Virus record (IMG/VR): IMGVR_UViG_3300045988_154892
Source of the DNA: a virus
DNA length: 64,000 bases
Reading direction: 5' to 3' (one strand)
In this document: piece after piece, positions 8,359 to 31,857 of the stretch
How positions within the stretch are numbered: the first letter of the stretch is position 1
Layout of the letters: each line of letters opens with the position of its first letter
Made by a program: the position numbers and the translations under genes
The notes under the pieces: generated by a model
What the model was told of the DNA's origin: nothing
What the model saw: the letters and a program-made list of their open reading frames with translations, nothing else
Databases searched by the model: none

Positions 8359-9838
8359 TTACATAATTATCTTGTGTCCAAGTCTTCCGTATTCGTCAGC
8401 CAACTTTTTCGTTGTATACGTATACGATTTTTCCAGTATTTTCTGCAATCCAGGCAGAGCATCCCTGTCAACATTACCTTCAACTGTGAGTAATGAATCA
8501 TAATGATTTGTTACCGTTACATTTCCGACATTGCTGATATTCTGAGGAATACTATTGTAGATAACATTGGCAGCATTAGCACCAAAGCTATTCGGATCAG
8601 TAGTACCCCATGTCATGAGATTGCTTACAAAATCCGCTGGTATTACAGAATCGCCTTTATTCACGCGAGTAAGCACAGCACCATCGTCACGAACAATAGT
8701 TTCTGGTATATCATCATGTTTCGTATAACGATTCTCATCAGTCCAAGCCAACTGATCTTTATCCGCATTAACGACACCATTCTCGTAACCACTAATCTGA
8801 CTAAGACGTACCCATCCAAGATCACTATAATTAGGATCATGCGCACTTTTGATATGGATCTTAAAATCACCAGTAGTACGTCCATTTCCGCCATATTCCC
8901 TAGCAGTGTAAGAGTCAATAACAACAGCACCAGGCTGACCGGAAAATCTATTACCCTTTGGAGACATACCCCAAGAGTCATTGTAATAAGATCCCGTGAA
9001 CGTTACGACATCGCCAACACGAGGAATGCCATCGCCGCCTGTCTTAGCAGGTTGTGGTTTTGGGGTAGGAGCCGGTGGTTTCGGCTTCGCATTGACCTTA
9101 ATTGATACTTTTGCAGACAGTCCACTTCCATCGGTAGTGGTAGCAGTAATCGTACAAGAGCCAGGTTTCTTCGCTTTTACCGTGCCATTTGATACAGTAG
9201 CAATTGATTCATTACTTGATTTCCAAGCAAGAGTTTTATTGGCTGCATCGTTCGGTCTGATTGTAGCAGTAATACTTGTGGATTTGCCCTCTTCCAGTGT
9301 AGTAGAAGTAGGAGACACCTTTAGTTCCGCAACCTTACGATTCGTTGTATCTTCCGGTTTGACTAATTGATCCGCAAGATCACTGTTTGCTTTTGAATTA
9401 CTGTTTATTGGATCAGTTTTTGTACCAGATGCGGTACTGGATGGATTTTTATTTGCACTGGACTGAGACTGTGATGCGTTGGAATTTTGATTCTTAACAC
9501 CTATCTCTGTGCCTAGATCAGACTGGGTATTGTTAAAATCTGTACTACCTACCCAGCCAGTATTTTTGATGATAGAATTGATTTTCCCATATGCTTCTTG
9601 ATAAGAGGACACGGCTTTGTCAAGCATAGAATTAATGATCTCAAGTTGTTTGTCGGCATTATGACTGATTTCGTACTCGGTGTTGTCCAACGTCTCTTGT
9701 AAATCCGAAGAAAGCTTGTCGAAACCTTGAGACTGCATATCATAAGCATGGTCACGCTTCGTATCATCAAGATCTTGCTCTGCAGTTTCCAGTTCGGCCC
9801 TTAATTTTCGTAATTTGCTTTGTGACTCTAGATTATTT
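8359..9838 (-). CDS. Tape measure protein, exon 7 (C-terminal 492 aa; Ig-like Big_2-type and SH3-like segments)
   Basis: The frame of ORF 8359..9738 stays open upstream to 9838 (..NNLESQSKLRKLRAELETAEQDLDDTKRDHAYDMQSQGF). The ATG at 9738 has no SD. The coiled-coil sequence continues that of exon 6. Also contains VSPTSTTLEEGKSTSITATIRPNDAANKTLAWKSSNESIATV, which is Big_2-like. Confidence 0.75.
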
Positions 9839-11534
9839 CATTATTTCTTTTCACTTATTCGCTACATAAGTGAGAGAGTAAAACTCTCCTCATATTTTCA
9901 TATGAGATTAGACTATATCTTCTGTTTATTAATCTAACTTATTTTATGGAAAATGTATTTCATTTTTGGGCGTTTAAAAGTAAGTTTCAATTCTTCTATG
10001 AGAATTTTTTCTAAATTATCAATTTCCCAATAGGGCATACGTAAAAGTTCTATATTATTATTTTTACAAAATTCGTTTTTGATATTATCATGTTTTTGAA
10101 CCCATTCTAAATTCTTTATTGCATCTTGTTCTGTCATCGATGATGTACGTTTAATTGGCTCATAATGATGAATACCATCAAATTCTATACATTTATTATA
10201 TGTAGGTAAATAAAAATCAAAAGGCAATGAATTCTTATCATGGCAATCATCAAATTTAAAACCTCTATAGTATTCTACATTATAATTATTTAAAATCTCT
10301 GCTATGATAGTTTCTCCAACGCTATTACTTGAACAATTTGGACATTTCCCGTCATAGTATTTTCTGCAATAATTACTAAAAGAAGAATAAAATATATTAT
10401 TACAGCTACCACATAAAATTTCTAATTTACTGTGACTTTTCTCATAAACTTCTGACAATAATTTATTATTATTTTTACTTTCAACATAATTTTTGACATA
10501 ATCATAACTTAGTCTAATTGCATTTCCAATTGCTTTATTTGAACATTGCGGACACCCATATTTTGCTCTTTTAAAATTACTTAGAGATGTAATGTATGTA
10601 TGACCACATTGCTTATTTTTAAAAACAAGATTTGATATTTTACAATTTACATAATCATTAGGATTTAATATGTCACAATTCTTTTTATTTGCAATGCTTA
10701 TTAGATCTTCTACAGAAATTCTTCTTTCCTCTGATATTTTTTCTAAAATACAATCATGACATATTGAATTACCGTATATAATAGAACTGGCAAGCATTTT
10801 TTGATCTCCATGCTTTTGACATTTAAACTCTACAAAACTCTTAACCCCAGTATAATCTTCAAATGAAGTCAATGGGATATAATTATACTGATTACAAAAG
10901 TTTAAATATTCGTTATAAGAATCAACATATTTATCATTTTTGATATCAGCAATCTTTTGCACTTTACATTCTTTTTTATTACAGCAGCTTTTAGTGATTT
11001 TTTGAAGACCCTTTTGATAGCCACCATAATTCGTTTTAAATATCTCTCCACAGTAATCACATGTCACTTGTACCAATACTTTACAAGTTGGCATAAGATC
11101 TTCTGCTTTGCACATAAATAAATCCCCAGTTTTTGTATATGTATAACCCTTTCCTACATACCATTTAACGTTATGCGCATTCCATTTTACTTCAACTTTT
11201 TGATTTTCTACTAACATATTCACCTCCAATCTTTTATTCTCTTCTTGTAAAATTGCACAACAAAAAATCACGTATCTTTCAACGTGATTAAATCCATAAA
11301 AATAATTATATTTAATAAACAGTTTGTATTTTTCGAGTTGCCAATCGCTTGCAACCCTATGGTGGTACACTCATCCCACCTAGTCGTTGAACGTTCTCCT
11401 ATTCGGAGTTTCGCTGCTGATTGTCCAATCTATATATTTTTCAAGCATTCACGTTTTGCTTTATTTCATGCATCCGTTGTAGCATATATAGCTCTAAGGA
11501 TATTCCAGCATTTAAACAAATTCGGCAAATATTC
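9839..11534 (-). mobile_element. Group I-type intron (TMP intron 6), 1696 nt, carrying a homing-endonuclease gene
   Basis: The 5' exon ends ..UCGGU and intron nt 9-13 GCCGA form a 5-bp P1 with a U.G pair. The intron ends ..AGAAAUAAUG. Splicing restores the frame (..AQIMALESV|NNLESQSKL..). The 3' part has three hairpins, including a GAAA loop and a GUAGCGAA loop. The core block GACAAUCAGCAG..AACGUUCAACGA is shared with the 39.3-kb intron. Confidence 0.7.
9934..11217 (-). CDS. Intron-encoded homing endonuclease (Cys-rich Zn-finger N-terminal modules + PD-(D/E)XK, Vsr/DUF559-like C-terminus)
   Basis: The likely start is the internal ATG at 11217 after GGAGGTGAAT; the track ORF extends to 11370 through intron RNA. 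The N-terminus VEVKWNAHNVKWYVGKGYTYTK..VQVTCDYCG matches the HNH protein at 55688. The C-terminus LPFDFYLPTYNKCIEFDGIHHYEP is a restriction-endonuclease-like motif. Confidence 0.7.
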   Translation of the reverse strand: MLVENQKVEVKWNAHNVKWYVGKGYTYTKTGDLFMCKAEDLMPTCKVLVQVTCDYCGEIFKTNYGGYQKGLQKITKSCCNKKECKVQKIADIKNDKYVDSYNEYLNFCNQYNYIPLTSFEDYTGVKSFVEFKCQKHGDQKMLASSIIYGNSICHDCILEKISEERRISVEDLISIANKKNCDILNPNDYVNCKISNLVFKNKQCGHTYITSLSNFKRAKYGCPQCSNKAIGNAIRLSYDYVKNYVESKNNNKLLSEVYEKSHSKLEILCGSCNNIFYSSFSNYCRKYYDGKCPNCSSNSVGETIIAEILNNYNVEYYRGFKFDDCHDKNSLPFDFYLPTYNKCIEFDGIHHYEPIKRTSSMTEQDAIKNLEWVQKHDNIKNEFCKNNNIELLRMPYWEIDNLEKILIEELKLTFKRPKMKYIFHKIS

Positions 11535-14500
11535 ACCGATTCTAAAGCCATGATTTGTGCTTTAAGGCTATTTATGTTGTTATTCTGAGAATTAATCTTC
11601 TTAGAATAGTCGTACATATCCTTCTGCTGTGTCAGGGCTTCTTTTCTCTTGCTGATTATTTTATCAAGATAATCAACCTCTGTACTCATAGCATTCTTAT
11701 ACAGATCAACCAGACTGTCCTGATATGATTTCACATCTGCAATCGAACCTTGAATACCTTCACGGTAATCTTTTGACTTGTCATTATATTCCGTTAAGGA
11801 AATAACCCCATTGTCATAAGACTCTTTTAGTTTTTGCAGACCCGTGGTATAATCTGCAATTTTTTGTTTTGCCGTACCAATACTCTGCTGTAAGAGAGCA
11901 ATCTGTGCCAGTCCCTCTTCCGTGATACGTCCTTGTTTATCAAGGAATGCATCATCGTTCAGAAGGTCGCGGAAACTTTTCAGCTCATCTTCAAGGTCAC
12001 TATATTTCTGGATGGCATCGTCAAGTGGCTTAAAACGTAGTTCATAGATACTATCTTGAAGAGATTCATTGTCCGTAATCAGTTCCAGAGTATTTTCTTT
12101 TAGCGTTTGAATCTTTTCTGCATAATCTTGATACGATTTAGAATTGACATCAAGAACCGCCTGTTTCTGCCGGTATATTTCCATCTGCTTTAGATTCTGC
12201 TGTACCTGAGCGTTATTATTATCTATACGGTCAGTGTATAGATTCTCTGGCACATCACGATTCTGGGATTGCAGGTAAGAAATATATTTCTCCGTAATAT
12301 CCGAATTACGTTTGATTCCGTCAATTACATTCTGAATAGTATCAATTTTAATCTGATCCAATTTATCCCGTAGTTCAAGAAGGCTGGTAGAAGCATCATA
12401 AATCTTAGCTGTGAAATCTTGAATATTTTTCATAGCAGATTGATAAGCTTCGGAACCTTTCTTAAGATAACCACTGGAAAGCTGTGAATCTACTTCTTTC
12501 TGATAATCGGAAAGCTTTTTGGTAAGCTGATTATAAGTATCTTCCTGTGCTTTGATGGATTTATTGATGCTTGCATAGTTGTCTGGATTGTCGATAGCTA
12601 CGCCTAGAGCATCATTCAAGGATATTTTGGAATTTGCTACGTCTTTGATTTTATCATTGATGTCTACGATCGCATCATATTCTTTTTCAATGATTTCCAG
12701 ACGTTTCTCAGCAAGTTCGGTAATTTTATCTTCGAGCTTGGCTACGTTATCAGCAGCGGATTCATATTTACTGTAGTAGTCCTTATACTCATCAATCTTT
12801 TTCTTCAGATCCTCGTTGGTTACTTTTTCCACATCAAGTGTGCCATTCTGGATTTTAGAGATATAAGAAGGATCAAGCCCCACGTTCGCCGCAAGCTGTA
12901 AATACTTGTTGGCTGACTGCTGATTTGCAGTTAATTCCTGCTGAACTTTACTGATAGCGTCATATGCTTTTGTCTGCTTCTGTGCCAGACCGATAGCACG
13001 ATCAATGTTATCAACTGCAATCTCAGTAGCACGAGACATTTCCTTAAGAAATACTTCTATCCAGTCGAAGGTTTCCTCGGTTGCTTCTTTGGTGGAAGAA
13101 CCACCGGATGAGGATCGAGTTGAATCACCAGAAGATGATCGAGAATTAGAAGAGGCGCGTGTAGACGATCCGGAGCTACTTGAACCTGAAGAGGATTTGG
13201 AAGAACTTGTCTTATCTTTGTTCTTCTCTGATGTCATCACACCAGTATTCTTATGAATACCAGGAGAACCATTTCCAAGTACCAATGCTGTACCAGATGC
13301 GAAAGATCCGCCTTGTATTTTTCCCCTTCCACCACCAGACGTTACATAGCCGTTCTTAAGCAATTCTTCTGACTGACGATTATTGAATACAATTTGACCT
13401 TTCTTGATATTAACAAACTCAGCGCCATTATCACCAACGGTTCTCCATGTACTCGTAGCTGGATCAACAACAATCTCAGTACCTAATTCTCCGACAAGAG
13501 AAGTGCTTGACTCTTTTGCTCCCCAATTGCCCGATGCATATGCCGTTCCAAGAGAATGAGCCGTGCCGTTTACTTTGTGTTTTCCAAAACCAAATATATT
13601 AGCACCAACAGAAACAACTTTAGATACAACTCCTTTAATAGCAGATGCAAGTAAAGATACTTCGCCAGTACCGAACACATTGGCACCAACAGAAACAGTT
13701 TTTGATTTTACACCAGATATTGCATTGAATAAAGCATCAACAAGATCTGTCCCTTTAACATTTCCTGTAACATCTACATCTTTATTCTTAACATTATCTA
13801 TCGAATCACTTAGCTCAGATACCTGATCCTGTCCTGTCACGGTGGCATTAACTGATAGATCTGTATTTTTTGCAAGAAGATCATTAAGCCAATCAAAAAA
13901 TTGCGAAACTTGTGTCCCGTCAAGCTTCGGTGACATTGTAACAGTTTTCTCTGCTGGAACACTGTTCTCCATAGCCGCATCTAACTTAGATGTATCTCCA
14001 TCGACATGCATCTTGATTTCTTTTTCAGACAGTTTATCTAATGACTGCTCAAAAGAATTAACATCATCAGTGTTGATATTAAGGCTTGCCACAAGATCAT
14101 TGTCCTTTAGATCAGAGTATAAATCCTGTACTTTTTTCTCTGCTTCTGATGTGTCAATGTCAAAGCCCATATCTTTCATTTGATTCTGGGCATTCAAATC
14201 CTCATAAGCCTTTTGGAATTCCTGGAGCTTATTGATTGTCTCAGTAGATTCTTCGGAAAATTTACTTGTATCAATTGTCATTACTGCAGGTTGTTCCAAT
14301 TCCTGCTTCTCGATTAGCAAATCTTTTAAAGCATTGTATGCTTGTAAGACATTGATATTTCCTAAATCTAATGTACCATCGTCATTCTTTAGATTCTCTA
14401 AAGCCGTCTTTGCATTTTCAATATTTGCATCAATATCAATCGTTGTTGATTTATTATCTGTAGCTTCTGTTAAATTATCAACCTTTTCTTTTGCTTTGGT

Positions 14501-17221
14501 TGTATCTGCATCGACATCGATAACACCATTAGCATGTAATTGATCTCCAAAATTCTTATAGTCAGATTTATATTGATCACTCTGATAATATTCTGCCCAG
14601 GACTTTCCAGAATCAATAAATGCATCATTCATATATTTCATAGCGTCATAAACACTAGAAATTTGTCTTTGAATTGCATTCTTTGTGTTTTCATCTGTAG
14701 CATTCGACAGATTCGCTTTTAGTTCATCAATATAAGAAGCAGCTTCCTTATATGCGTCAAGATTTGCAACATCACTCGTATTAGCGCTTTCTGCTTGTTT
14801 AAGATATTGTTTCTTAGATGCATTTAATTCTGCCCAGGTTTGATTATCCCCACCTTCGTCAGCAGTATTCTGCAACTCGTCAATCTGCTGCTGAATAGAA
14901 GCAAGACTGTATTGAAATTGAATATTAACAACAACATCATGATCTGTTAATGTTGAAAGATCATTTTCATATCCCGCTAATTCTTCATCCCATCCGTCAA
15001 TAAGTTTTTTATACCGATCTTTTGTAGCTCCTTCTTCCATAGAATCATAAATAGTTTTGATTCCATTTAAAGCTGACTTGTATTGATCTAACTCATCACC
15101 AGACCAAACCATATCATTAAATTCTGCACCGTAAGCCTCCAGATTATGCATCAAAACTTCTACGGCGCTTACGCTTATTCCTAATTTGTCGGCAGCGTCA
15201 GCACTGCTGTTAAAATTCTCCGTCCATTGAAAATCATTATTACCATCTGCAATAGCAAGACCAACATTCTGAAGATCCGTTAAGAAATTTTCTGCACTCT
15301 GGAATTGATCCTCATTGTCAAAATATCTCTTAACTTTGTCCTGCGCTTCTTTCCAAGCTGCTTCATAAGCCTGTGCATCAAAAGTGAATCCATCGTCTGG
15401 ATTAATTTTCTTTTGAGTCATGAACTGGGCCGCTTCTTTAAAATCATCCGTGCCAATCTGACCATTCGCAAACAATTCGTCAGCTTGAGCAAGATATTCC
15501 GCCATTGTTTTCCAGGATTTATCTTGATTATCCGTATTAAAAGCAGTTGTAACACTTGACAGACTTCCTTCTACGGTGTCAATTGCATCAGCAGCATCTT
15601 CAGCAGCCGATGCGGTTTCTTGAAGATAAGATTGTAAATCAGAAATATTATCAATTCCAAGATCGTCTAATGTAAGACCCATGCCAGCAAGAGCTTTTTG
15701 CAATTCTTCAGCGCTGCCAGCAGATTCTTTTAATTCTGCTTTAAGAGCATTCTTGCCAAAAGAACCATCGAAGAAATCACTGAGAGAATTTAATGCTTTC
15801 TGTGCGTCTGTAAGATCTTTATCAGTAATTGAACGAAGCATCTTCCTGACTTTTTCAAAATACGGCTCGTAACCAGATAGTGCAGTCAAACCCTCTCCAT
15901 TTACAGAAAAAGCATTTAATATATCTGTAAAATCAGATGCCTTATCTTGAAGTTCATCTTCAATAGAATCTACCATTTTTTGAAGTTTTGCTTCATCCTT
16001 TTCGGCTTTCTTTCTGTCTTTTTCAGATATACCTTTTTGTCCCTGTTTTTCTATTGCTTTATCTAAAAGATTTTGGTATTCTTGGTAATATGCCAAGTAA
16101 GACTCAAGAGAGCCTTTAGTATAATTAATGTCATCCTCAGTATACTTTTCTACATCAACACCAGGATTTTTAAAGAAATCTTTCATCTCTTTATTAAGAG
16201 ATTTTGTACTTAGGCTCCACAATTGCTCTGGCATATCCATATATTCAGCTTTTTCTAACAAATCTTTTGCGTCATTAGCTGCTTTTCTTTGTTCTGATGT
16301 CACGAGCTGTTCTTTTAGATTTAATGTTCTTTCTAATTCGTCATTGCCAAGCTGAATTTTTTCTATTTCAGTCTGATCAACTAAAGTAAGTTGTATGTCA
16401 TTGGCGGATTGGATTTTATCAATCATCTCATCAACAGATTCGGTACCTTCTAATGCAACATTATAATTAGAAGCTATTTCCTGAAGAGTCTGTTTATATT
16501 GATCAGCCTTTGCATTTAGATTTTCTACTTCTTTTTGAGCATTTTGTAAGTTTGTAACATGCTCTTTAACATTTTTCAGGTTTGTATCATATGTAAGATT
16601 GTACTTATTATCTGCCCATTTAAATAGTTGATAAGCAGCAATTGCCGTGCCGACAGCCGCAATAATTGGAAGCATTGTTTTCAGAGTAGCAAGCAATCCT
16701 TTGAAATAATTCGAAAGATTAGAAAAAGCTGTGCCAGCTTTTGATGCAGATTCTGGGAGTTCAACGATAGAGTCACCTAATTCTGCATTTGCATTAATAA
16801 TCTTTTTTACTTGCTCGTTATATTCTGCGGAACCTTCTTTTAGTTTTCCTAATAAATCTTCTTGTTCTAAAGTTAACTTGCCTTGATTTTGTAGAGCCTT
16901 TACTAATACTGGAGCATTATTTGCAGAATCTTTTATAGCATCTGCATAAGTTAGTTTGCCAGTTGCAGCTTTGGCAGAAAGCGTCGCATCGCTTGCTAAA
17001 GCTAAAGCTTGGCTCCTTAATTCTTTATTTAATCCTAAAACATTTGCTTTTGCTTCTATTTGCTCTGAATTAAATTTACTAATTCCGTCTGATCCAACAC
17101 CGAAAGTTGCATTAAATGAATCTTTTAAATAATTCTGAAAATCATCATATGATCCTGCTTTTTTAAAACGTTTTCCACTTAGATCACCAAAACTGCCAAA
17201 TATATTTCCCAGATCTTTAAA
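11535..17221 (-). CDS. Tape measure protein, exon 6 (about 1895 codons)
   Basis: Huge coiled-coil-rich ORF with a hydrophobic segment (LLATLKTMLPIIAAVGTAIAAYQLF) and a Ser-rich linker. The track start is a TTG at 17257 with no SD. The last 46 track residues (VNICRICLNAG...) are intron read-through. The upstream boundary (17221-17254) is uncertain. Confidence 0.7.
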
Positions 17222-17244
17222 CTGCAAATTAATTGTTAATAATG

Positions 17245-23422: not shown

Positions 23423-23460
23423 CTACTTTCATAAAAAATTTTAAGAAGAGGATAAAAGAT

Positions 23461-23559: not shown

Positions 23560-23703
23560 AAGTGGAAGAGAAGAGTATTGGAAAGTTATATTTCCATATT
23601 CTCCTCAATTTAATGTTTACTGGCACATTTCAGCCCACGCACATCCTATAGACGTACTATATTTCGATATGGATATTTTATATGACTTCCATTTGTCAAT
23701 CAT

Positions 23704-23925: not shown

Positions 23926-24440
23926 GCTTTCACATCCTCTATTGTTATTCTGTAATTTGACGATAAATATCTATATAATTTTCCTATTATTTTCCAACAA
24001 CGCCAGAAATAGGATAAAAAGCTGGCGTGTGATGAGAAAGCATCACAACTTTCGCGTACCGTGGAACATGCATTCAACGCATATAAACTATGGCATTATA
24101 TACGCTGGAGGAAGGGTGTTCTCTCTACTCCTCCCAACTTTCATATGCTTCGCTCGTCATTATGATTTTATTTTTAATTTCATAATTGCTGCTAACGTTT
24201 CACATATTACTATACGTAGTTAGGTTGGCTCGTGCGTTCTCGCGGAATTTTCATCCATTTCACTGCATTATTGCAGAATAGCGAATTCGACGAATTGATC
24301 CTCTATTTATTTTTTACAAGCACTAATCTCCCTACGTTGAAATATCATTCCATTGCTATGATATTCTCCGCATTGATAAGCCAGTTTACGATAAACTATA
24401 GCCAGGATTTTGGCTAACCTATGCTTGATATAAATTTAAA
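23926..24440 (-). ncRNA. Structured ORF-free RNA segment, the putative 5' (core) part of TMP intron 5
   Basis: About 515 nt with many perfect hairpins on the - strand: UAGCCA-AAAUCC-UGGCUA, CUGCA-AUAA-UGCAG, GGAGGA..UCCUCC, GUGAUG-CUUUCU-CAUCAC, CGCCAG..CUGGCG, and a GCGAAAG element. Similar in size to ORF-less intron 4. P1 is not clearly canonical. Confidence 0.45.
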
Positions 24441-24614
24441 ACCACCAAGTGCTGTTAAAGCTGTGCCAAGTGGCCCAAGTGTTTCAGTAATTTTAGTAAG
24501 AATTTCTAAGAATTGTGTTCCGCTATCTATGACAGCCTTGAAAGTGTCTGATGATAGAACAGAAGTTGAAAATTCTTGGAATGTAGCCTTGAATCTTTCA
24601 AGACTGTAATCGAT
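24441..24614 (-). CDS. Tape measure protein, exon 5 (58 codons)
   Basis: My - strand translation is IDYSLERFKATFQEFSTSVLSSDTFKAVIDSGTQFLEILTKITETLGPLGTALTALGG, typical of the segment after the TP901 core. The frame stops 8 codons later (FKFISSIG*, stop at 24416-24414). The 3' boundary is either 24441 or 24417. Confidence 0.65.
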
Positions 24615-25157
24615 CGTTATATTAACAATAGTCGCTAATTATTGTTTTGTTGTATATTATATATAGGAATGATACACAATAAACTCATACCTTCGCATGA
24701 GAGTAGACTATTTCTTAACCACACTCTAAATAGAAGAGCAGCAGTCACACCTTTTCGATTTAAAGGGATCTCACCTACGTTTATAGCGATTACGCCCTAC
24801 GAGTATTGAATTAGATATTCGAGATTTCCACTCTTATTTTTAATATTCTCTGTATAAATAAGAATATTTTCTAATTCCCGACATGGCTCTAGTCGTTGAA
24901 GATTTTCCCTCGACTTAACTAACATTTGATCAATGTATAACGTTAGGGAACTTTCCTGCATGAACAGCAATTCCTGATTTATATAAAATCAGTAAACTTG
25001 ATACTTAGGCTTTTGACCATATATCATCCTTACGTTGTTTCTACTTTAGTCCCATCATAATATGATTTCTCCATTATTGTGGTGTAAGGCTTTACGCGTT
25101 ACCTGCAATTAAATGTGTTCTTTATGCACATTTCTGTACATACGGGTATACGAATTT
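24615..25157 (-). mobile_element. Group I-type intron (TMP intron 4), 543 nt, ORF-less
   Basis: The 5' exon ends ..AAGGGU and the intron ends ..AUAUAACG. Splicing joins ..ELANYQKG|IDYSLERF.. in frame. Hairpin-rich with no ORF. Its P1 candidate GGGU/ACCC at nt 11-14 has U-A instead of U.G. Confidence 0.6.
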
Positions 25158-25499
25158 ACCCTTTTGGTAATTAGCTAATTCCTTTTCGGCGGAGCCTTCG
25201 GAATTTTCCGCTGTTTGATATGCTGCCTTAATAACATCTACGTTATTCAGGGCGGCTGCCAGACTATTCGACTGATTTTTGCCGGCTAATATTTCAAGAA
25301 GTGAAGCACGGTTGATATCTGTCATATCTTGCCATTTTTCACCAATACCTACAACAATGTCATAAATATCCTTGAAATTATCTTTATCTTTCATGATGTC
25401 AAAGCCACCAGTTAATGCTTTGACTTTAGCTTGTAGTTTCGAAGTAGAAGTTACTAAACCTTCAGTATCTTCACCCATAGATTCAAGCTCGGTGTCTGC
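25158..25499 (-). CDS. Tape measure protein, exon 4 (114 codons, TP901-core segment)
   Basis: ADTELESMGEDTEGLVTSTSKLQAKVKALTGGFDIM..ASLLEILAGKNQSNSLAAALNN..ELANYQKG. The track ORF 25122..25523 adds intron read-through at both ends (TTG start, tail KFVYPYVQKCA). Confidence 0.75.
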
Positions 25500-27424
25500 C
25501 ATTCTGTTACTTTCATCTGACAAACAGATTACTGACCATAATATAATTATGGCGATACGTTATTTCTAGCGTATTCTCACGTTTCATATTTAAGGGAATT
25601 ATTGCGTGACGATTACAGTTATATTAACTATAAAAGAAATCTTATAGATTTGATCGGACTGTATATTATCGTTTCCTATTTATAAGGAGAGCGAGATAAC
25701 TTCAATTTATATGTTACCATATAAATCCTGCAGTCTCTTGGGATACTTATAATTTCACATATTATTTGTACTTATAATACCAATTATAACCACCAGAATA
25801 ATGTCTCCCAGAACAAAGTGCTGACGAAATATGTTTTGCTCCAGTGGCATCAATTGCTTCCTTAATCGTTGAGTATTCTGCAATGAAATTACCATTCTTA
25901 TCAAATTGAATTACTGGAGAATAATCTCTTCTTCTATAATTCTGAGGATATGTTGTTTTTCCATAATGAATTGCATCATATATACGGTGCTTCGTATAAC
26001 CAAGCATGTTTTCACAGTCAAAAACAGAATATCCTTGATTTAATAAAATTTGAACCTTTTGCTCATCTATTTTATTTGAATAATCGAGATCAATATATGA
26101 AGGCACAGATTGGATGTCAGGGAAAAATAATTGAATCATTTCCAAAACTGTATAATCTCTCTGATCTACTGCGTAAAAATTATATCCAATAGATTTCCAA
26201 TATTTTTCTTTGATTTTATCTTTTTGCTTTTGGTCTTCAAAGTCATGGAACCAACTCTGTATTTCAATTGCGATCTTTTGATTATGATTAACAATATCCG
26301 TTGGCAGTGGATGATTGGTATCTGGATTAACACATGATTTATCTTCAACAACAGTATCTGGAAATTCATGTAACCAAACTTGTTTTAAAACTAAAGCATG
26401 TGTTGATTCTAATTGGTTACATTCACAATGAGGACATTTTGCACCTGTTTTATTAGTAGATAAATTATCTTCACTTAAACATCTTTTTCTATTAATATTA
26501 TTCCAACTATTATAGAAGGTACGACCGCATTTCAAATGTTTTATCAGTAACTTTTCGTCTCTATTTTTAAAATGTTCCGATAAACAAATATATTCACCAT
26601 TTGTATTCTTATTGAGAAATGTATTTATATTTTGAATAGAATATTTATTCGACTTTGCTATTGGAAATGGATAACATTTATTCATTATTTGATTGTATAT
26701 CACATCATATAAATACCCATTATCGTCAAGACACGTTAAAGGTGATAGTGTTATCCCTTTAAAATCTGATTCTTTAATCTTAAGGTAAAATCCATGCATT
26801 GATAAATTATTCTTAATATCGTTATACGTCAGATTCTTAGTATATCCTGAACAAGTATCACACTTATTTTTATGTCCTTGTCTTACTGAGTCAAAAGTTG
26901 TTTGAAACAAATTTCCGCATTCACATCTAAATGTTAAAATACTATTTGAATTTTCATATTTTCCAGAAACATAAGTACATTTGCATTCTTCTTTATGCAA
27001 CTCTAAATAATGTTGGATATTGTATTCAATATCAGGATTCGATTTATGGAATCTAACCGGTTTCTTTGTTGTATGTTCTAGTTTGTTAAAACATGGATAT
27101 ACAATATACCCTTCCTGATCGTAACACCGAAATTTTGAATATGAATTTTTGTATTCTCCACTTATGTAAGTATATCCATATTGTTTTAAAAGTTCCACAA
27201 TATTTTCATCTTTATGTGATCTTTTGTCGTCCATTTAATTTTACCTTTCTTTTAATAATTCATTTTTATATTCTCTTAATGATTAGAAAGGTATTGATAA
27301 ATTTATTCTAAAATTATAAGTCTTTCCTACGTCTCTGGTGTTCCCTCACCATTTGACATATATAGTTATCCTCTATGCTATTTTTAAAGTGCTGCATAGC
27401 ATACAAACTTTCCTTGTATGGAGG
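25500..27424 (-). mobile_element. Group I-type intron (TMP intron 3), 1925 nt, with homing-endonuclease gene
   Basis: The 5' exon ends ..GAGGU and pairs with intron nt 10-14 GCCUC. The 3' end GAAAGUAACAGAAUG is identical to that of intron 2. Core blocks (GACUGCAGG..AUAUGGUAACAUAU..CUCUCCU, AGUCCGAUC, CACGCAAUAAU..AAACGUGAGAA) are shared with introns 1 and 2. Confidence 0.7.
25762..27234 (-). CDS. Intron-encoded homing endonuclease (Zn-finger modules + PD-(D/E)XK-like core + C-terminal IENR/NUMOD-like DNA-binding repeat), 490 aa
   Basis: SD AAAGG. Repeated Cys-rich YxxGxYxNS..F.C.CG modules. IAIEIQSWFHDFED is nuclease-like. The C-terminus VIQFDKNGNFIAEYSTIKEAIDATGAKHISSALCSGRHYSGGYNWYYK is an intron-endonuclease repeat type. 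Confidence 0.7.
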   Translation of the reverse strand: MDDKRSHKDENIVELLKQYGYTYISGEYKNSYSKFRCYDQEGYIVYPCFNKLEHTTKKPVRFHKSNPDIEYNIQHYLELHKEECKCTYVSGKYENSNSILTFRCECGNLFQTTFDSVRQGHKNKCDTCSGYTKNLTYNDIKNNLSMHGFYLKIKESDFKGITLSPLTCLDDNGYLYDVIYNQIMNKCYPFPIAKSNKYSIQNINTFLNKNTNGEYICLSEHFKNRDEKLLIKHLKCGRTFYNSWNNINRKRCLSEDNLSTNKTGAKCPHCECNQLESTHALVLKQVWLHEFPDTVVEDKSCVNPDTNHPLPTDIVNHNQKIAIEIQSWFHDFEDQKQKDKIKEKYWKSIGYNFYAVDQRDYTVLEMIQLFFPDIQSVPSYIDLDYSNKIDEQKVQILLNQGYSVFDCENMLGYTKHRIYDAIHYGKTTYPQNYRRRDYSPVIQFDKNGNFIAEYSTIKEAIDATGAKHISSALCSGRHYSGGYNWYYKYK

Positions 27425-27460
27425 CACAAAATTTACCTCTAAGTCTGGCACTTACGGTTT
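27425..27460 (-). CDS. Tape measure protein, exon 3 (36-nt micro-exon, NMWKTVSARLRG)
   Basis: It lies between two HEG-bearing introns and supplies the missing core segment: ..QDPDRVG|NMWKTVSARLRG|ADTELESMGEDTEG.., as in TP901-type TMP cores from memory. It ends in GGU. Confidence 0.65.
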
Positions 27461-28822
27461 TCCACATATTCATTCTGTTACTTTCCCATATGTGATATGG
27501 TACCGACTATATTCTCATATAGCGATTAGTCATTTCTGGCTAATTCCCACGTTTCATTATGTTATAGCGTGGCGACTATGATAAAATCATAGAAGTGTCT
27601 ATTGACAGTTCAGACTGGATCTTCATCCTATACAAAATAGGAGAGTAGCGAAACTCTATATGTTGCCATATAAAGTATTACAGTCGTTACGGTTATTTGT
27701 ATATTCTCTATAGCATAACCAAATGATTAGGCATTAGTCTATGCTGGTTTTTCTTTTAAAAAATATGGTTGGATTATTTCTGGATTAATTGATAGATTGT
27801 TATTTTCGATATGATAATTAAAAGAATTATAATTTTCTAAAACACCATGTCGGTCAACATATTTTTGAATTAACAATTTACAAAGATCTAAGTTATTATA
27901 AATATCATTCTCCCAAAGATATAGAACTTCGTATCCATAATTATTTTTAATATATGTATGTTTTGCTTTATCTTTTGGAATTCGTTTTATTTGAATACTT
28001 CTAGTCGGATATTCTGGGTATATAATAGGATTCGTATGCCAAAAATCTCCCATTACCTCTATTACTAGATTGAAATCGTCTAAGTAATTATCCAAAGAAT
28101 AGTATTTAATGTTCTTTTCGTTTGTAAATTTAATATTCATAGAAGATAATAAATCATTGATAATAACTTGAGGTTTCGTATTTGTATCAATTTCTTTGTT
28201 TTCTAAAATTTTGACCGCACGAATACGTGATTGCTCTTTCCAATTTTCATCTTGAGAATAAATATTTGTATACCAATCCTGTCTACATTTGGACGAGCAA
28301 AAATGATGAGAAAATCTATCTAGATTTGACTTTCCAACCGATATCTTTTTGCCACACCAATCACAATCACATACTTTCCCTTGGAATCGCACATTCTTTT
28401 CACCAACATTTGTTTTCTGCCATTCACTTTGGCATTTCATTGAACAAAATTGTTGATTTAATCTTTTCGGCGTTTCGAATTGTTTATTACATATTGGACA
28501 TATTCTATATTCATACGTCTGTTTATGCTGATATTCCATCTGGCATTTTGTACTACAAAAATGATGTTTTGCTTTATTGTATTGTGTTTTAGTTTGATAA
28601 ATTTCTTTTCCGCAAGTTTCACACGGAATAGTATAACCTGTTTTTGAACCCTTTTTAGGTATAAGATCATCTCCTTTATTATTTTATATAAACGTTCCCT
28701 TCCTAATTGAAACGTCATAAGAATATACAAATCTTACCTCGGTCTTGTCCACTTCTGGATATTAACCGATATAGCTACTTTTATTTTCATTACATTACTG
28801 CAAAGGTAGGCAATATGTTTCC
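27461..28822 (-). mobile_element. Group I-type intron (TMP intron 2), 1362 nt, with homing-endonuclease gene
   Basis: The 5' exon ends ..GUAGGU and pairs with intron nt 12-17 GCCUAC (6 bp, compensatory relative to introns 1 and 3). It ends GAAAGUAACAGAAUG. The core is homologous to introns 1 and 3. Confidence 0.7.
27739..28539 (-). CDS. Intron-encoded homing endonuclease, Vsr-like (EDxHD-type) PD-(D/E)XK, 266+ aa
   Basis: NLVIEVMGDFWHTNP..KDKAKHTYIKNNYGYEVLYLWENDI is Vsr-like. There are repeated CxxC...FCSxKCQxE(Y/W)Q zinc modules. The frame stays open about 150 nt upstream of the ATG (to ~28690) and encodes another such module without a canonical start. Confidence 0.65.
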   Translation of the reverse strand: MEYQHKQTYEYRICPICNKQFETPKRLNQQFCSMKCQSEWQKTNVGEKNVRFQGKVCDCDWCGKKISVGKSNLDRFSHHFCSSKCRQDWYTNIYSQDENWKEQSRIRAVKILENKEIDTNTKPQVIINDLLSSMNIKFTNEKNIKYYSLDNYLDDFNLVIEVMGDFWHTNPIIYPEYPTRSIQIKRIPKDKAKHTYIKNNYGYEVLYLWENDIYNNLDLCKLLIQKYVDRHGVLENYNSFNYHIENNNLSINPEIIQPYFLKEKPA

Positions 28823-28973
28823 ACCTACGCGGTCTGGGTCCTGTAGTGTTGTATTGGTTCCAGTGATTAAAGCAATTGATTTTGAGAGGCTCGTATGACT
28901 CGCATTAAATGAAGCTGCACTACGCTGCAACGCTTCACCAATACCGTCTGATCCAATTGCGAAATTATTTGCT
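28823..28973 (-). CDS. Tape measure protein, exon 2 (151 nt)
   Basis: My translation is (V)ANNFAIGSDGIGEALQRSAASFNASHTSLSKSIALITGTNTTLQDPDRVG, a hallmark TP901-family TMP core sequence. No start codon. A TGA lies in frame just upstream. Confidence 0.8.
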
Positions 28974-29281
28974 CATTAAATTTGTTACTTCTTTTATTCT
29001 CCACAAATAAAAAAGAGTAGGTCATTTCTGCCTACTTCTCACGTTTTAAAATATTCGATTATTGCGTGAGATCGGACTATATATTCTTCCTATTACAATA
29101 GGAGAGCAACTTCACTAAATTATGTCTCCATAATAAAGCCTGTAGTCTCTACGCATTCTTGATAAAAATCAAGTCTTTGCTCGGTCTTAGCTATCTCTAG
29201 CCTTTAACCGATATAGTTGCTATCAATATGTATTAAGCACATAAAGCATATACATTACTGCATATGGAGGCAGCTATGTTT
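28974..29281 (-). mobile_element. Group I-type intron (TMP intron 1), 308 nt, ORF-less
   Basis: The 5' exon ends ..GAGGU and pairs with intron nt 11-15 GCCUC. The intron ends ..GUAACAAAUUUAAUG. Splicing gives ..VDKFNEV|ANNFAIG.. The core is homologous to introns 2 and 3. Confidence 0.7.
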
Positions 29282-31857
29282 ACCTCATTAAATTTATCCA
29301 CAATTGATTCAGCCTCATCAGCTTGCATATTAAAACCTTGTAACGTAGAAACCAAACTTTCTGAAGCCGATTCCTGCGTCATATTATCTCCAACTCTCTG
29401 ATACAAGGTTGTAACATCAGAAAGTTTCTTGGCATCGTCAAGCGACCAACCCAACTTTGACCAATCCGCAGTACTACTAATTACATCACTAACTGTAGCA
29501 CCATATTTCTTGGCACTTTCAGCAGCCTGATCCCAGTACTGACTTAATTGGCTCTCCGATGCGTCACTTGCGACTTTTGCCAGCTCAATCTGAGCATCAT
29601 TAATTTCCTTTACATTAGAAACAACCTTTGATGGAATTTCCATAACGACATTCTGTAACATGCCGTAAATTCCCGTAAACTGAGCAATTTGATTAACAGC
29701 ACGTTTTGTATCTTGCCAAAAACTTGCACCTGTTAATCCTTCGGCAGAAATTTTTGCCTTCAAATCTCGTGCTTTAGCATCAACTTCTAGCTTTTGTCCT
29801 TCTGTTGTTACATTTTTATAAGCATCACGGACTTCTTCAAGCTGTGCCTTATATTTCTTCCATGCCTTGCTATTGTTGTTGATATAAGATTGCATCTCGT
29901 TTGACGCACGTAAAGCGACACCAGGTGCGAGAGTAGCAGTTTCCTCTGCCTTGACCTGTTTTATCGCTGTCTTATATTTTTCTTCCTCTTCAGTCATCTT
30001 CTGAAGATTCTTACTTAAACGTTCAACCTCTTCGTCACTAAGATCAGAAACCTTAGTGTCTTTCATAGACTTTTCAAAGTCTTCACGGATCTCTTTGAAT
30101 TGTTTTAAGTTTTCTCTTGCACGAGTTAGAGATTCAGAAGTCTGCCCTTCATATTTAGAGAGATCATTTTTATAACCAGCTTCCGTTGCAGAATATTTGC
30201 CTGTTGCTAACTCTTTTTGAACTTCCGCGAGCTTTTTGCGCGCATTAATTTCCTGCTCGATATTAGCAATGGTTTTTGAATTGTCATAATCAACAGCCTT
30301 TGTAATTCCAGAATCCTTTGATGTATAAGCCGTTCTCAACTCATCCAGTTTATCTAATTGTGATTTACTTGCAAAACCATCAGAACTTTGTACGAGCTTG
30401 TCGATTTTATCAATAGTTTTCTGAAGTGATGTGCTGTCAAGATTTTTAGATAAAGAATCGCCAAGTGTTTTTGCAGTTGTTTCGACTTCACTTAGTTTTG
30501 AATTTAAAATATCCGCATCCGCAGCGATTTGAGTTAAGTTACTATCCGATCTTTTTGACAATTCCGTTTTAATACTGTTTTGCTTTTCGTGAATGGTTTT
30601 AACGGCAGCGTCAAATGAGTCTAATATGTTTTCTGACCCTTTTTGTCCGGCATATTTTGATCTTATTTTTTCAAACTTGGCATCCAACTGTTGAATAGAC
30701 GCATCTGAAACTAACTCTTTAACTTGAGCTACTTTCTTTTCAAGAGACTCTTGTGTTTTCTTAGCGGTTTTATCCACGGCAGAAGAACTGTTTTTAGAAG
30801 TCTTTTCCATTGTGCTATTGACAAGTGTCATTACATTTTTAAACTCTTGCCCAGCAGATGTACATTCATCAAACTTTGCAGTGATCTGATCCATTGATGC
30901 GCCAGAATTAACAAGATCCGACAATTCCTTTTCAAGCGACGTTATAGTTGAGTCAAGCGTCCGCGCTCTTTCAATGGCTTCTGTTGATTGTCCAGAATAA
31001 TTATTTAACTGCTTTGTTCGTAACCCTTGACGAATAGCAGTATTGTCATCATTCCCGTAAGCTTTTATGGTATTATCATTTTCTTTTCTGTAACTATTGT
31101 ATCCATTCGACTTTCGTTGGAAATGAGCTAAAGATTTTTGCTCAAGTTCGTCATTGTAAAATCCTAATTTTCTTGCATCAGAAATGTTTGTTCGAATTTG
31201 AGTCATTTCGTCTCGCAAATCAGAAATTCTACCTTTTACATAAGCTTGATCTCCAGTAGCAACTTTACCTTTAGCAGATTTCGTTTTTAGAGAGTAATAC
31301 TCTGTAATATCCTTATTTAACTGAGAATATGCTTTACGAAGATCAACTACGGTGGCTGTTTCAGATTTTAATTCGCCTTTATCATTATAATTTTGTTGTA
31401 CTCCGTTTGACTTTGTATAACTATGAGATGTAGAGGACTTGCCGTTTTTTCCATAACGAGTAGATCGTACAACTTTGTCAGCATTTATTCCATCAAGCTG
31501 ATCTTTATCATCCGCAGTTTTTTTTGATGATTTTGTCTTAGTTGTTGATTTCTTAGACTTTTTTTTGATCTTTTTATCTAGATCATCTATTTTCTTTTCT
31601 GCAGTAGACGAAACATCTGTATCAACCGAAATTTTTCTCTTTTTTTTTACTTTTTTATCTAACTTATCAAGTTCAGAATCATCAACCTTTGGCTTAATAT
31701 TTGTGCCAGCAAGTTCTTGAAGAGCTTTATTTGTTGCCTCCAAAGTCTCTTTTAGATTTTTTGTATCATTGGTAATCTCTTTAATACCTTGACTGATTTT
31801 GTCTTCCATTTCGGCTCTGATTTTTACTTCGCCTATATATTGTTTTGAGTCAGACAT
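29282..31857 (-). CDS. Tape measure protein, exon 1 (858 codons + 2 nt)
   Basis: ATG follows GGAGG. Lys-rich, coiled-coil N-terminal region ending in the TP901 core start (..ESIVDKFNEV). The track tail NIAASICSNVYALCA is intron read-through. Confidence 0.8.

What the first reader, a model, noticed from the sequence alone, without database searches (positions are those of the whole stretch)
8359..31857. Tape-measure gene is a seven-exon mosaic interrupted by six group-I-type introns
The track shows TMP-like ORFs (29233-31857, 25122-25523, 11441-17257, 8359-9738), each ending in junk tails or starting without ATG/SD. Translating the gaps by eye recovers the missing TP901-core pieces as start-less exons at 28823-28973, 27425-27460 and 24441-24614.

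Joining them gives ..DKFNEV|ANNFAIGSDGIGEALQRSAAS..QDPDRVG|NMWKTVSARLRG|ADTELESMGEDTEG..YQKG|IDYSLERFKATFQEF.., and the exon lengths sum to 10446 nt, exactly 3482 codons.

Every 5' exon ends in GGU and every intron ends in G. In introns 1, 2, 3 and 6 a GCC-containing guide 8-11 nt into the intron pairs with the exon end, with compensatory changes: GAGGU/GCCUC, GUAGGU/GCCUAC and UCGGU/GCCGA. Introns 1-3 share core blocks.

From memory, the most fragmented phage genes I know of (phage Twort) have about three introns. Six in a structural gene of about 3500 codons would be exceptional.
Basis: partly seen in the sequence, partly recalled or inferred. Interest (0 to 1): 0.8.

Follow-up and report, generated by a model that had tools for sequence, protein, structure and literature searches.

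The report
Six-intron tape-measure gene, one giant intron
The tail-length ("tape measure") gene of this roughly 200-kb gut phage is cut into seven pieces by six self-splicing group I introns, and one of them is a 7.2-kb giant that carries about ten unrelated genes, including candidate anti-phage defence genes, which has no precedent that I know of or could find.

Summary
On the minus strand of 8359-31857, seven exons join into one 10,473-nt reading frame of 3,490 codons with a single terminal stop. The joined product matches the whole tape-measure core domain (PF10145 2-201/201, 74 bits). Exon 1 alone matches only 2-85.

Each of the six junctions is gapless against relatives that lack that intron. 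All six 5' exons end in GGU and all six introns end in G. Introns 1, 2, 3 and 6 have a guide sequence forming P1 with a U.G pair at the splice site. Introns 1, 4 and 6 give weak Rfam group I hits. Introns 2, 3 and 6 carry homing-endonuclease-like ORFs.

The main surprise is intron 5 (17225-24416, 7,192 nt). A group I core fills its first 440 nt or so. One guide region pairs with the 5' exon (P1) and, right next to it, with the 3' exon 7.2 kb away (P10), and both pairings co-vary across lineages. Between core and 3' tail lies a variable 3-8 kb gene cargo. Splicing has not been shown experimentally.

The parts
29282..31857 (-). Exon 1 of the tape-measure gene (2,576 nt; starts at ATG 31857, ends ..GAGGU).
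   Evidence: ORF with a junk tail after ..DKFNEV. PF10145 positions 2-85 only. Boundary.
28974..29281 (-). Intron 1, 308 nt, no ORF. IGS GCCUC pairs with exon GAGGU. P7 AGACUA/UAUAGUC. Ends AAUG.
   Evidence: Rfam Intron_gpI full-length alignment, 20.6 bits, E 0.0034 in a 336-nt search, below the gathering score. Absent in L005-L027 and L038, which are colinear across aa 859.
28823..28973 (-). Exon 2 (151 nt; ANNFAIGSDG..QDPDRVG).
27471..28822 (-). Intron 2, 1,352 nt. IGS GCCUAC pairs with exon GUAGGU. P10 ACAUAUU pairs with the start of exon 3, AAUAUGU. ORF 27739-28539 (266 aa).
   Evidence: Homologous to intron 1 in both the 5' and the 3' part. The ORF hits PHROG endonuclease families and, weakly, Pfam Vsr. 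P0002 and L005 are colinear across the site.
27435..27470 (-). Exon 3 (36 nt; NMWKTVSARLRG).
25500..27434 (-). Intron 3, 1,935 nt. IGS GCCUC pairs with exon GAGGU. ORF 25762-27234 (490 aa, NUMOD1).
   Evidence: Homologous to introns 1 and 2. The ORF hits phrog_559 at E 1.9e-21. L008 and others are colinear across aa 921.
25158..25499 (-). Exon 4 (342 nt; ADTELES..ANYQKG).
24615..25157 (-). Intron 4, 543 nt, no ORF. Exon GGGU pairs with ACCC (U-A rather than U.G). J8/7-P7 is AAGAAAUAGUCU. Ends AACG.
   Evidence: Rfam Intron_gpI 22.6 bits, E 0.0028 in a 1.1-kb search, below the gathering score. L005 and P0001 are colinear across aa 1035.
24417..24614 (-). Exon 5 (198 nt; IDYSLERF..TALGGFKFISSIG, ends AUAGGU).
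   Evidence: Homology to relatives runs to the last codon. P1 pairing is given.
23977..24416 (-). Intron 5 ribozyme core, about 440 nt.
- Optional P1-loop hairpin 24416-24399.
- P10 element UAAACUG 24388-24382.
- IGS GCUUAU 24381-24376.
- P7 24121-24116 / 24068-24063.
- P8 24104-24078.
- P9 24046-24029.
- P9.1 24013-23983, with loop UGUUGGA at 23999-23993.
   Evidence: Conserved non-coding block shared with distant relatives. Covarying helices. P1 and P10 table. Coordinates. Rfam does not detect it.
17291..23976 (.). Cargo of intron 5: about ten genes, mostly antisense to the TMP.
- Zn-ribbon proteins at 17301-17879, 19289-19924, 19921-20277 and 20330-20917.
- DUF5067 lipoprotein at 18163-19263.
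- Two trypsin-like proteases at 21391-22125 and 22461-23129, each convergent with a small ORF on the TMP strand (22091-22432, 23099-23422).
   Evidence: Pfam. PADLOC candidate system PDC-S45 at E 4.7e-40 and 8.8e-19. Cargo size in relatives is about 3-8 kb, with different genes.
17225..17290 (-). 3' tail of intron 5. UCCAACA at 17249-17243 pairs with the P9.1 loop. The terminal G is at 17225.
   Evidence: The G is conserved even where the preceding codon is not a start codon (UCG in L024 and L034, CAG in L066).
11535..17224 (-). Exon 6 (5,690 nt; starts CAGUUUAAAG = QFKDLG.., ends ..UCGGU).
   Evidence: No Shine-Dalgarno sequence upstream in any relative. P10 pairs with intron 5 nt 29-35. P0149, P0193 and L047 are fused across the junction.
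9839..11534 (-). Intron 6, 1,696 nt. IGS GCCGA pairs with exon UCGGU. P7 ACGACUA / AUAGUCU. ORF 9934-11217/11370. Ends AAUG.
   Evidence: Rfam Intron_gpI 32.9 bits, E 4.9e-5, model positions 48-158. The ORF hits phrog_559 at E 6.6e-58 and 'homing/intron-encoded nuclease' PHROGs. The homolog P0193 ends in a junk tail at the same site.
8359..9838 (-). Exon 7 (1,480 nt including the stop; NNLESQSKLRKL.. with a Big_2 domain).
   Evidence: The frame is open from 9837. Gapless alignment across the junction with the uninterrupted P0153, E 3e-42. Big_2.

Best explanation
The window comes from a phage of about 200 kb with SPbeta-like tail-gene homologs (Pfam YomU/YomV/YomW/YonB families in relatives). 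Its relatives sit in Lachnospiraceae and Ruminococcus genomes. Its tape-measure protein (3,490 aa) is encoded by seven exons separated by six group I introns.

Introns 1-4 and 6 are ordinary phage group I introns of 308-1,935 nt:
- A guide sequence 8-11 nt into introns 1, 2, 3 and 6 pairs with the end of the upstream exon (P1), with a U.G pair at the splice site. Intron 4 has only a GGGU/ACCC match with a U-A pair.
- The intron ends in G.
- Three of them carry homing-endonuclease-like genes, which would explain their patchy presence among relatives.

Intron 5 is a group I intron whose catalytic core lies entirely in its first 440 nt or so.
- Its guide region pairs with the last six bases of exon 5 (AUAGGU/GCUUAU).
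- Immediately 5' of that, it pairs with the first seven bases of exon 6 (CAGUUUA/UAAACUG), which lie 7.2 kb downstream.
- A second contact joins the loop of the last core hairpin to a motif 25 nt before the 3' splice site. This would help bring the distant 3' end to the core.
- The 6.7 kb in between is a variable cargo of accessory genes, some resembling candidate defence genes, and mostly on the opposite strand.

Inferred, not shown: late transcription reads through the cargo. The intron then excises itself, in cis or possibly from two transcripts, and the ribosome makes one full-length tape measure. Unspliced RNA would yield only the 1,101-aa N-terminal part, because the intron begins with UAG.
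For: Coding evidence:
- The spliced frame is 10,473 nt with one stop.
- The PF10145 match becomes complete only after joining.
- Junctions are gapless against uninterrupted relatives: P0001 and L038 for introns 1-4, where L038's core is 97% identical; P0149, P0193 and L047 for intron 5; P0153 for intron 6.
- L047 has an uninterrupted open frame of 3,720 codons spanning the N and C parts of the gene.

RNA evidence for introns 1-4 and 6:
- GGU|...G boundaries.
- P1 pairings.
- Rfam Intron_gpI hits on the correct strand at the expected place, with E 5e-5 to 3e-3 in restricted searches.
- Introns 1-3 are homologous, with compensatory changes.
- Endonuclease ORFs.

Intron 5:
- A conserved non-coding block starts exactly at the exon end.
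- P7 is GAACA/UGUUC in some lineages and GACUA/UAGUC in others. P8 has 9 different sequences: six pair fully, one has a single mismatch, and two (L002, L064) as entered pair at only 8/13 and 8/11. P9 and P9.1 each have 5 variants.
- P1 and P10 are adjacent in the canonical order in ten lineages (P1 read by hand for the window and L004). P10 occurs in four sequence versions.
- For L064 and L052 the 3' exon sequence was predicted from the intron. It was then found 4.6 and 4.8 kb downstream, preceded by G and followed by an ORF of more than 900 aa.
- The loop-tail pairing co-varies: UGUUGGA/UCCAACA, AUUGGCA/UGCCAAU and UUAUUGGCA/UGCCAAUAA.
- No Shine-Dalgarno sequence precedes exon 6.
- In L024, L034 and L066 there is no start codon, only the terminal G.
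- No recombinase gene in the cargo and no strong terminator on the TMP strand.
Against: - No Rfam hit reaches the gathering score. The best is 32.9 bits against 50, and the intron 5 core is not detected at all.
- P3 and the P4-P6 domain of intron 5 were not resolved in the window's lineage.
- Intron 4's P1 has a U-A pair, not the canonical U.G pair, at the splice site.
- Nearly all of 139 representatives of the C-piece family are called as separate ORFs starting at exactly this residue. That would also fit a naturally split gene.
- I know of no described group I intron that splices across 7 kb of mostly antisense genes.
- No RNA or protein data were available.
Confidence: 0.8

Rival explanations
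1. Five introns are real, but 'intron 5' no longer splices. An old intron was swamped by inserted genes. The tape measure is now made as two proteins: N, 1,101 aa, ending at the TAG at 24416-24414; and C, 2,389 aa, starting at the TTG at 17227. The two work together in the tail.
For: - The split is present in all 27 related loci where both ends could be mapped.
- Nearly all 139 family representatives are called as ORFs starting at this residue.
- A TTG or ATG precedes exon 6 in most lineages.
- Rfam does not see the core.
Against: - P10 between the intron's 5' region and exon 6 co-varies in four versions, and P1 co-varies too. A dead intron would not keep this.
- Core helices co-vary.
- There is no Shine-Dalgarno sequence in any lineage.
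- L024 and L034 have UCG, and L066 has CAG, in place of a start codon.
- Read-through tails after FKNLD differ in length, as they do at the other introns.
Confidence: 0.1
2. Intron 5 splices in trans. One transcript carries exons 1-5 plus the core. A second transcript starts just upstream of the 3' tail and carries the tail plus exons 6-7. The two associate through P10 and the loop-tail pairing.
For: - The two contacts with the 3' part are intermolecular-style pairings, not a stem that closes over the cargo.
- A promoter-like site (TTGACA, 16 nt spacer, AATATT) lies at 17307-17280 on the TMP strand.
- A conserved UAUAUCAU motif lies about 45 nt upstream of the 3' splice site.
- Most cargo genes are antisense, so read-through would collide with their transcription.
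Against: - Promoter-like sites in the region are no more frequent than in shuffled sequence: 35 found against 42.8 expected.
- There are no strong terminators on the TMP strand inside the cargo.
- Some cargo genes lie on the TMP strand, as in L007.
Confidence: 0.1

Closest known systems
Group I introns TMP-IVS1, -IVS2 and -IVS3 in the tape-measure genes of Bacillus cereus-group prophages (Tourasse and Kolsto 2008, PMC2504315)
   Same: Subgroup IA-type group I introns inserted in a phage tape-measure gene. There are several alternative insertion sites, related introns re-targeted through P1/P10, and patchy presence among related phages.
   Different: That case has three sites in all, and the strains described there carry one or two of these introns per TMP gene. 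The introns are small and some lack a complete endonuclease gene. Here there are six in one gene, about ten or more sites across the family, and one intron with a multi-gene cargo.
Staphylococcus phage Twort orf142 with three group I introns (from my own knowledge, not checked here)
   Same: Several self-splicing group I introns in one phage gene. Closely related introns sit at neighbouring sites.
   Different: Three introns, all small. Here there are six, with exons as short as 36 nt.
Phage T4 sunY (nrdD) intron (from my own knowledge, not checked here)
   Same: The catalytic core lies upstream of the inserted ORF. The 3' splice site lies far downstream and is recruited by short pairings (P9.0/P10).
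   Different: The T4 insert is one endonuclease ORF of about 0.8 kb on the same strand. Here the insert is 3-8 kb, holds about ten genes, is mostly antisense, and varies between relatives.
Introns and intein in the ribonucleotide reductase genes of Bacillus phage SPbeta (Lazarevic 2001, seen only as a reference in PMC6145125; otherwise from my own knowledge)
   Same: SPbeta-type large temperate phages of Firmicutes are known hosts of group I introns. This phage family shares SPbeta-like tail gene families (YomU/YomV/YomW/YonB).
   Different: Those introns are in nucleotide-metabolism genes, not in the tape measure, and carry no cargo.
[quoted passage not shown]
   Same: The ORFs of introns 2, 3 and 6 have repeated zinc-finger modules. 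They also have weak Vsr-like or treble-clef hits and hits to phage 'homing/intron-encoded nuclease' PHROGs.
   Different: Membership in that family was not tested. No PDB relative was found by sequence.

Membership tests
Group I intron (introns 1, 2, 3, 4, 6) | The 5' exon ends in U, and that U pairs with a G of an internal guide sequence (P1). | tested here: met
   GAGGU/GCCUC (introns 1 and 3), GUAGGU/GCCUAC (intron 2) and UCGGU/GCCGA (intron 6). Intron 4 is the exception: GGGU/ACCC gives a U-A pair.
Group I intron (all six) | The last intron nucleotide is G (omega-G). | tested here: met
   The endings are AAUG, AAUG, AAUG, AACG, UUUG and AAUG. For intron 5 the G is kept in every lineage, including three that have no start codon there.
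Group I intron (Rfam RF00028) | The covariance model scores at or above the curated gathering score of 50 bits. | tested here: not met
   There is no hit at gathering in the window. The best scores are 32.9 bits for intron 6, 22.6 for intron 4 and 20.6 for intron 1. Introns 2 and 3 are split by ORFs. The intron 5 core is not detected.
Group I intron (all six) | Precise removal restores a colinear gene, and alleles without the intron exist. | tested here: met
   Gapless junctions against P0001, L038, P0149, P0193, L047 and P0153.
Group I intron (intron 5) | P1 and P10 are formed by adjacent parts of one guide region, with the P10 part 5' of the P1 part. | tested here: met
   Window: UAAACUG (nt 29-35) and GCUUAU (nt 36-41) pair with CAGUUUA and AUAGGU. 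The same layout holds in ten lineages (the script was off by one base for the window and L004, whose P1 was read by hand). There are four P10 versions, two of them predicted before being found.
Group I intron (intron 5) | A conserved catalytic core: P3-P8, with P7 and J8/7. | tested here: inconclusive
   P7, P8, P9 and P9.1 are supported by covariation. Relatives L027, L050 and L066 carry consensus-like UAAUUGCUGGGAA, CAGAGACUAC and AAUGUAUAGUCC. P3 and P4-P6 were not resolved in the window's lineage.
Group I intron | Self-splicing started by guanosine. | not testable with these tools
   This needs in vitro transcription with GTP, or RNA from infected cells.
Phage tape measure protein (Pfam PF10145 PhageMin_Tail) | A full-length domain match above the curated cut-off of 33.2 bits. 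| tested here: met
   The spliced product matches 2-201/201 at 74.4 bits. Unspliced exon 1 matches 2-85/201 at 29.7 bits, below the cut-off.
Homing endonuclease genes (ORFs of introns 2, 3, 6) | A recognised nuclease family with catalytic motifs. | tested here: inconclusive
   PHROG families annotated HNH, homing or intron-encoded nuclease, with E from 2e-10 to 7e-58. Pfam gives only NUMOD1, a treble-clef zinc finger and a weak Vsr hit. No PDB relative was found for the intron 2 and intron 6 ORFs; the intron 3 ORF was not searched.
PADLOC candidate defence system PDC-S45 (cargo proteases) | A match to the system's protein model. | tested here: met
   E 4.7e-40 for 22461-23129 and 8.8e-19 for 21391-22125. 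Defence activity is untested.

The most novel reading that the evidence does not exclude
Intron 5 is a domesticated group I intron that serves this phage family as a safe harbour for swappable accessory and defence gene cassettes in the middle of an essential late gene. The cassettes are mostly antisense and could be expressed from the prophage. RNA splicing across 3-8 kb, guided by P10 and a loop-tail contact, would rebuild the tape-measure message during lytic growth. If so, self-splicing introns can act as gene-cargo carriers, not only as vehicles for a single endonuclease gene.
Probability: 0.5. Interest if true: 0.9.

Novelty: new variant of a known kind. Interest (0 to 1): 0.82.

Why it matters
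Group I introns in phage tape-measure genes are known. Six in one gene, with exons as short as 12 codons, would be among the most fragmented bacterial-virus genes I know of. It shows that the conserved core of this protein is a hotspot with about ten or more alternative insertion sites.

The larger point is intron 5. To my knowledge, described group I introns carry at most one or two endonuclease or maturase ORFs. Here the same RNA machinery appears to bridge 3-8 kb of unrelated genes whose content changes from phage to phage.

If splicing is confirmed, three things follow:
- It gives a new way for phages to carry accessory or defence genes inside an operon without breaking it.
- It is a natural example of very long-range, or possibly trans, group I splicing.
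- It is a warning for annotation. Gene callers split these tape-measure genes into several ORFs: the protein searches returned the exon-1 ORF of this phage as a separate protein (P0112), and the C-terminal piece is almost always called as a separate ORF starting at the intron 5 junction. One source names the exon-1 ORF 'SbcCD ATPase'. The Rfam model misses the introns at its curated threshold.

Tried and rejected
- **Rfam at gathering** on the whole window finds no intron. Permissive scans give only sub-threshold hits for introns 1, 4 and 6, and nothing for the intron 5 core in the window, L027 or L036.
- **Megablast** of the whole region against GenBank phages gives no match. tblastn of the exon 5/6 junction against the same collection gives only distant TMP cores and no fused relative.
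- **An automatic search for the loop-tail pairing** is confounded by AT-rich chance duplexes. That pairing therefore rests on six lineages read by eye. L004 and L064 could not be fitted.
- **Group II intron:** rejected. No GUGYG...AY boundaries, and the Rfam scans gave no group II hit.
- **Intein:** rejected, because the inserts have in-frame stops.
- **DNA-level excision of the 7.2-kb insert:** considered unlikely. There is no recombinase in the cargo, and the two ends are linked by RNA-type complementarity rather than by direct repeats.
- **More introns elsewhere in the window:** the motif hits at 2386 and 60221 lie inside long ORFs and are chance.
- **PDB sequence searches** for the intron 2 and intron 6 endonuclease ORFs found nothing useful.
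- **P3 of intron 5** could not be placed with confidence.


Full report
**1. What is in the sequence**

On the minus strand between 31857 and 8359 there are four large ORFs with tape-measure (TMP) character. Each ends in a short unconserved tail, or starts without a start codon or ribosome-binding site. Exons 1-5 joined give 3,279 nt with no stop.

Pfam PF10145 matches exon 1 only over positions 2-85 of 201, at 29.7 bits, which is below its cut-off. It matches the joined product over 2-201, at 74.4 bits. With the final boundaries the seven exons sum to 10,473 nt, that is 3,490 codons and a single terminal stop.

- Exon 3 is 27435-27470.
- Exon 5 ends at 24417.
- Exon 6 starts at 17224.
- Exon 7 starts at 9838.

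**2. Junctions checked against relatives**

A protein search and three scans for related loci gave more than 70 related loci. They come from phage contigs of about 100-240 kb in human-gut metagenomes and from Lachnospiraceae and Ruminococcus genomes. Their tail genes belong to SPbeta-like families (YomU/V/W, YonB).

- P0001 is colinear across all four junctions of the N-terminal part.
- L038 is 97% identical over the core and has none of introns 1-4.
- P0002 lacks introns 1 and 2 but reads into an intron-3-like tail.
- P0153, an uninterrupted 2,544-aa TMP, aligns without a gap across the exon 6/7 junction (E 3e-42).
- P0193 stops in a junk tail at exactly that site.

Mapping by tblastn shows about ten alternative intron sites in the N-terminal core among relatives, near aa 803, 859, 898, 909, 914, 921, 959, 986/994 and 1035. 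The positions are approximate. Each relative has one to three of them in that core. The window has four there, plus introns 5 and 6.

**3. Introns 1-4 and 6 as group I introns**

All six upstream exons end in GGU and all six introns end in G. Introns 1, 2, 3 and 6 have a guide sequence 8-11 nt inside the intron that pairs with the exon end, with U.G at the splice site: GAGGU/GCCUC, GUAGGU/GCCUAC, GAGGU/GCCUC and UCGGU/GCCGA. Read directly from the sequences, P10 is clear for intron 2 (ACAUAUU/AAUAUGU) and intron 6 (UAUUU/AAAUA). Intron 4 has only GGGU/ACCC, with a U-A pair.

Rfam finds nothing at its curated threshold. In restricted searches it aligns the group I model:
- to intron 6: 32.9 bits, E 4.9e-5;
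- to intron 1 over the full model: 20.6 bits, E 0.0034;
- to intron 4: 22.6 bits, E 0.0028.

Each hit is on the correct strand and starts at the predicted 5' splice site. Introns 1-3 are homologous in both halves, with compensatory changes. The ORFs in introns 2, 3 and 6 match phage endonuclease PHROGs, with E down to 7e-58.

**4. Intron 5**

The gap between exon 5 and exon 6 is 7,192 nt and holds about ten genes, mostly on the other strand. I first doubted that it was an intron, but the evidence points the other way.

(a) *The boundaries are fixed.* In all 27 related loci where both ends could be mapped, the N-terminal piece ends at the same residue. The C-terminal piece starts at the same residue, with 3,070-7,081 nt between them. 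L004 and L064 extend the range to about 8 kb.

(b) *Uninterrupted alleles exist.* P0149 (..AFFKNLD|SLKDVGNLF..) and P0193 (..GLFKNRD|TLTDIGSVF..) are fused across the junction. L047 is too, with a single open frame of 3,720 codons. All three align without a gap to ..FISSIG|QFKDLGNIF...

(c) *The core is conserved and co-varies.* The roughly 440 nt after exon 5 are conserved non-coding sequence, even where the flanking proteins are only about 50% identical. Across ten or so lineages the helices co-vary:
- P7: GAACA/UGUUC against GACUA/UAGUC.
- P8: nine different sequences. Six pair fully and one has a single mismatch. Two (L002, L064) as entered pair at only 8/13 and 8/11.
- P9 and P9.1: five variants each.

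Some lineages carry consensus-like J3/4-P4 (UAAUUGCUGGGAA), J6/7-P7 (CAGAGACUAC) and J8/7-P7 (AAUGUAUAGUCC).

(d) *P1 and P10.* One guide region pairs with both exons in the canonical order. In the window UAAACUG (nt 29-35) pairs with the first seven bases of exon 6. The adjacent GCUUAU (nt 36-41) pairs with the last six bases of exon 5, with U.G at the splice site. A script run on ten lineages finds the same layout in all of them. In every case the best duplex with the 3' exon begins at exon base 1 and abuts the guide. The script's 5'-exon slices for the window and L004 were off by one base, so I read P1 for those two by hand. L006 and L008, which share the window's sequence here, confirm it. 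The P10 versions are:
- CAGUUUA/UAAACUG;
- CAAUUUAAA/UUUAAAUUG;
- CAAGUUAA/UUAACUUG;
- UCACU/AGUGA.

For L064 and L052 I predicted the 3' exon from the intron. I then found it 4.6 and 4.8 kb downstream, preceded by G and followed by an ORF of more than 900 aa.

(e) *A second long-range contact co-varies.* The P9.1 loop pairs with a motif about 25 nt before the 3' splice site:
- UGUUGGA/UCCAACA;
- AUUGGCA/UGCCAAU;
- UUAUUGGCA/UGCCAAUAA;
- UAUUGGC/GCCAAUA.

(f) *Exon 6 has no translation start signals.* It has no Shine-Dalgarno sequence in any lineage. L024 and L034 have UCG, and L066 has CAG, where others have TTG or ATG. Only the terminal G is conserved.

(g) *No sign of DNA-level excision or termination.* The cargo has no recombinase gene, and there is no strong terminator on the TMP strand.

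Rfam does not detect this core. I could not place P3 or P4-P6 in the window's lineage.

**5. The cargo**

In the window the cargo encodes:
- four zinc-ribbon proteins;
- a DUF5067 lipoprotein;
- two trypsin-like proteases, each convergent with a small ORF.

The proteases match the PADLOC candidate defence system PDC-S45 (E 4.7e-40 and 8.8e-19). The 3.07-kb cargo of L007 holds a SocA/Panacea antitoxin-like gene instead. An antisense zinc-ribbon gene abuts the 3' tail in the window, L002, L004 and L007.

**6. Mechanism**

Shown by sequence comparison: exon colinearity, the splice-site signatures, P1 and P10, and core covariation.

Inferred: that late transcripts run through the cargo and the intron excises itself. 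Trans-splicing from two transcripts is possible but less likely. Because intron 5 starts with UAG, unspliced RNA would give only the 1,101-aa N-terminal part.

At about 1.5 angstrom per residue (my own knowledge), a 3,490-aa TMP implies a tail of roughly 500 nm.

**7. Comparison with what is known**

Group I introns in TMP genes were described in Bacillus cereus-group prophages, at three sites, and the strains described there carry one or two of these introns per TMP gene (PMC2504315). Phage Twort has three introns in one gene, and the T4 sunY intron has its core upstream of its ORF (both from my own knowledge). Six full-text searches found no report of six introns in one phage gene, nor of a group I intron with a multi-gene cargo. 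The library does not cover most subscription journals.

**8. Verdict**

This is a new variant of a known kind. Intron 5 is the part that would surprise a specialist. The remaining uncertainty is experimental: whether splicing occurs, and whether in cis or in trans.

Noticed in passing
window 63303-63761 (-), next to a tRNA at 63201-63274 (-): A GOLLD RNA (Rfam RF02032) at 195.9 bits, above its gathering score of 150. So this phage also carries one of the very large structured non-coding RNAs of unknown function, directly beside a tRNA gene.
   Followed up: no
window 52469-52770 (-) and 57906-57977 (-): A cluster of three tRNA genes, and one further tRNA gene, all on the minus strand.
   Followed up: no
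window 21391-23422: A duplicated two-gene module inside the intron 5 cargo. Each copy is a trypsin-like protease (21391-22125 and 22461-23129, + strand). Each is convergent with a small ORF starting MIIIN.. on the other strand (22091-22432 and 23099-23422). The proteases hit the PADLOC candidate defence system PDC-S45 and, weakly, LmuA.
   Followed up: partly
window 17301-17879 (+); also L002 15418-15999, L004 19847-20338, L007 16274-16846: A double zinc-ribbon protein gene always sits antisense and directly next to the 3' tail of intron 5, whatever the rest of the cargo is. It may be part of the intron's biology rather than cargo.
   Followed up: no
window 29284-29295 and 28972-28983 (-): The 12-nt string AAATTTAATGAG occurs at the end of exon 1 and again across the 3' splice site of intron 1. 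It could be a trace of the homing event or an alternative pairing. I did not pursue it.
   Followed up: no
window 24399-24416 (-): The 18-nt hairpin UAGCCAAAAUCCUGGCUA at the very start of intron 5 is absent in lineages L027, L050 and L066, so it is an optional insert in the P1 loop. The terminator scan flags it as weakly terminator-like. Its UAG is the stop codon that ends the unspliced N-terminal product.
   Followed up: partly
L047 6545-17704: A related metagenomic contig has a single uninterrupted open reading frame of 3,720 codons covering the whole tape-measure gene, with none of the introns. It is a useful intron-free reference for the family.
   Followed up: partly
L002 18209-20625: In the Ruminococcus genome copy the C-terminal TMP piece is cut short (463 aa and 268 aa ORFs). 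It is followed by TnsB/TniB-like transposition genes, and the N-terminal piece is preceded by opposite-strand Thy1 and dUTPase genes. This looks like a rearranged or decaying prophage.
   Followed up: no
L065 4853-20547: The TMP match in this locus is broken into many short overlapping pieces with frame changes. This probably reflects assembly or sequencing errors rather than biology.
   Followed up: no
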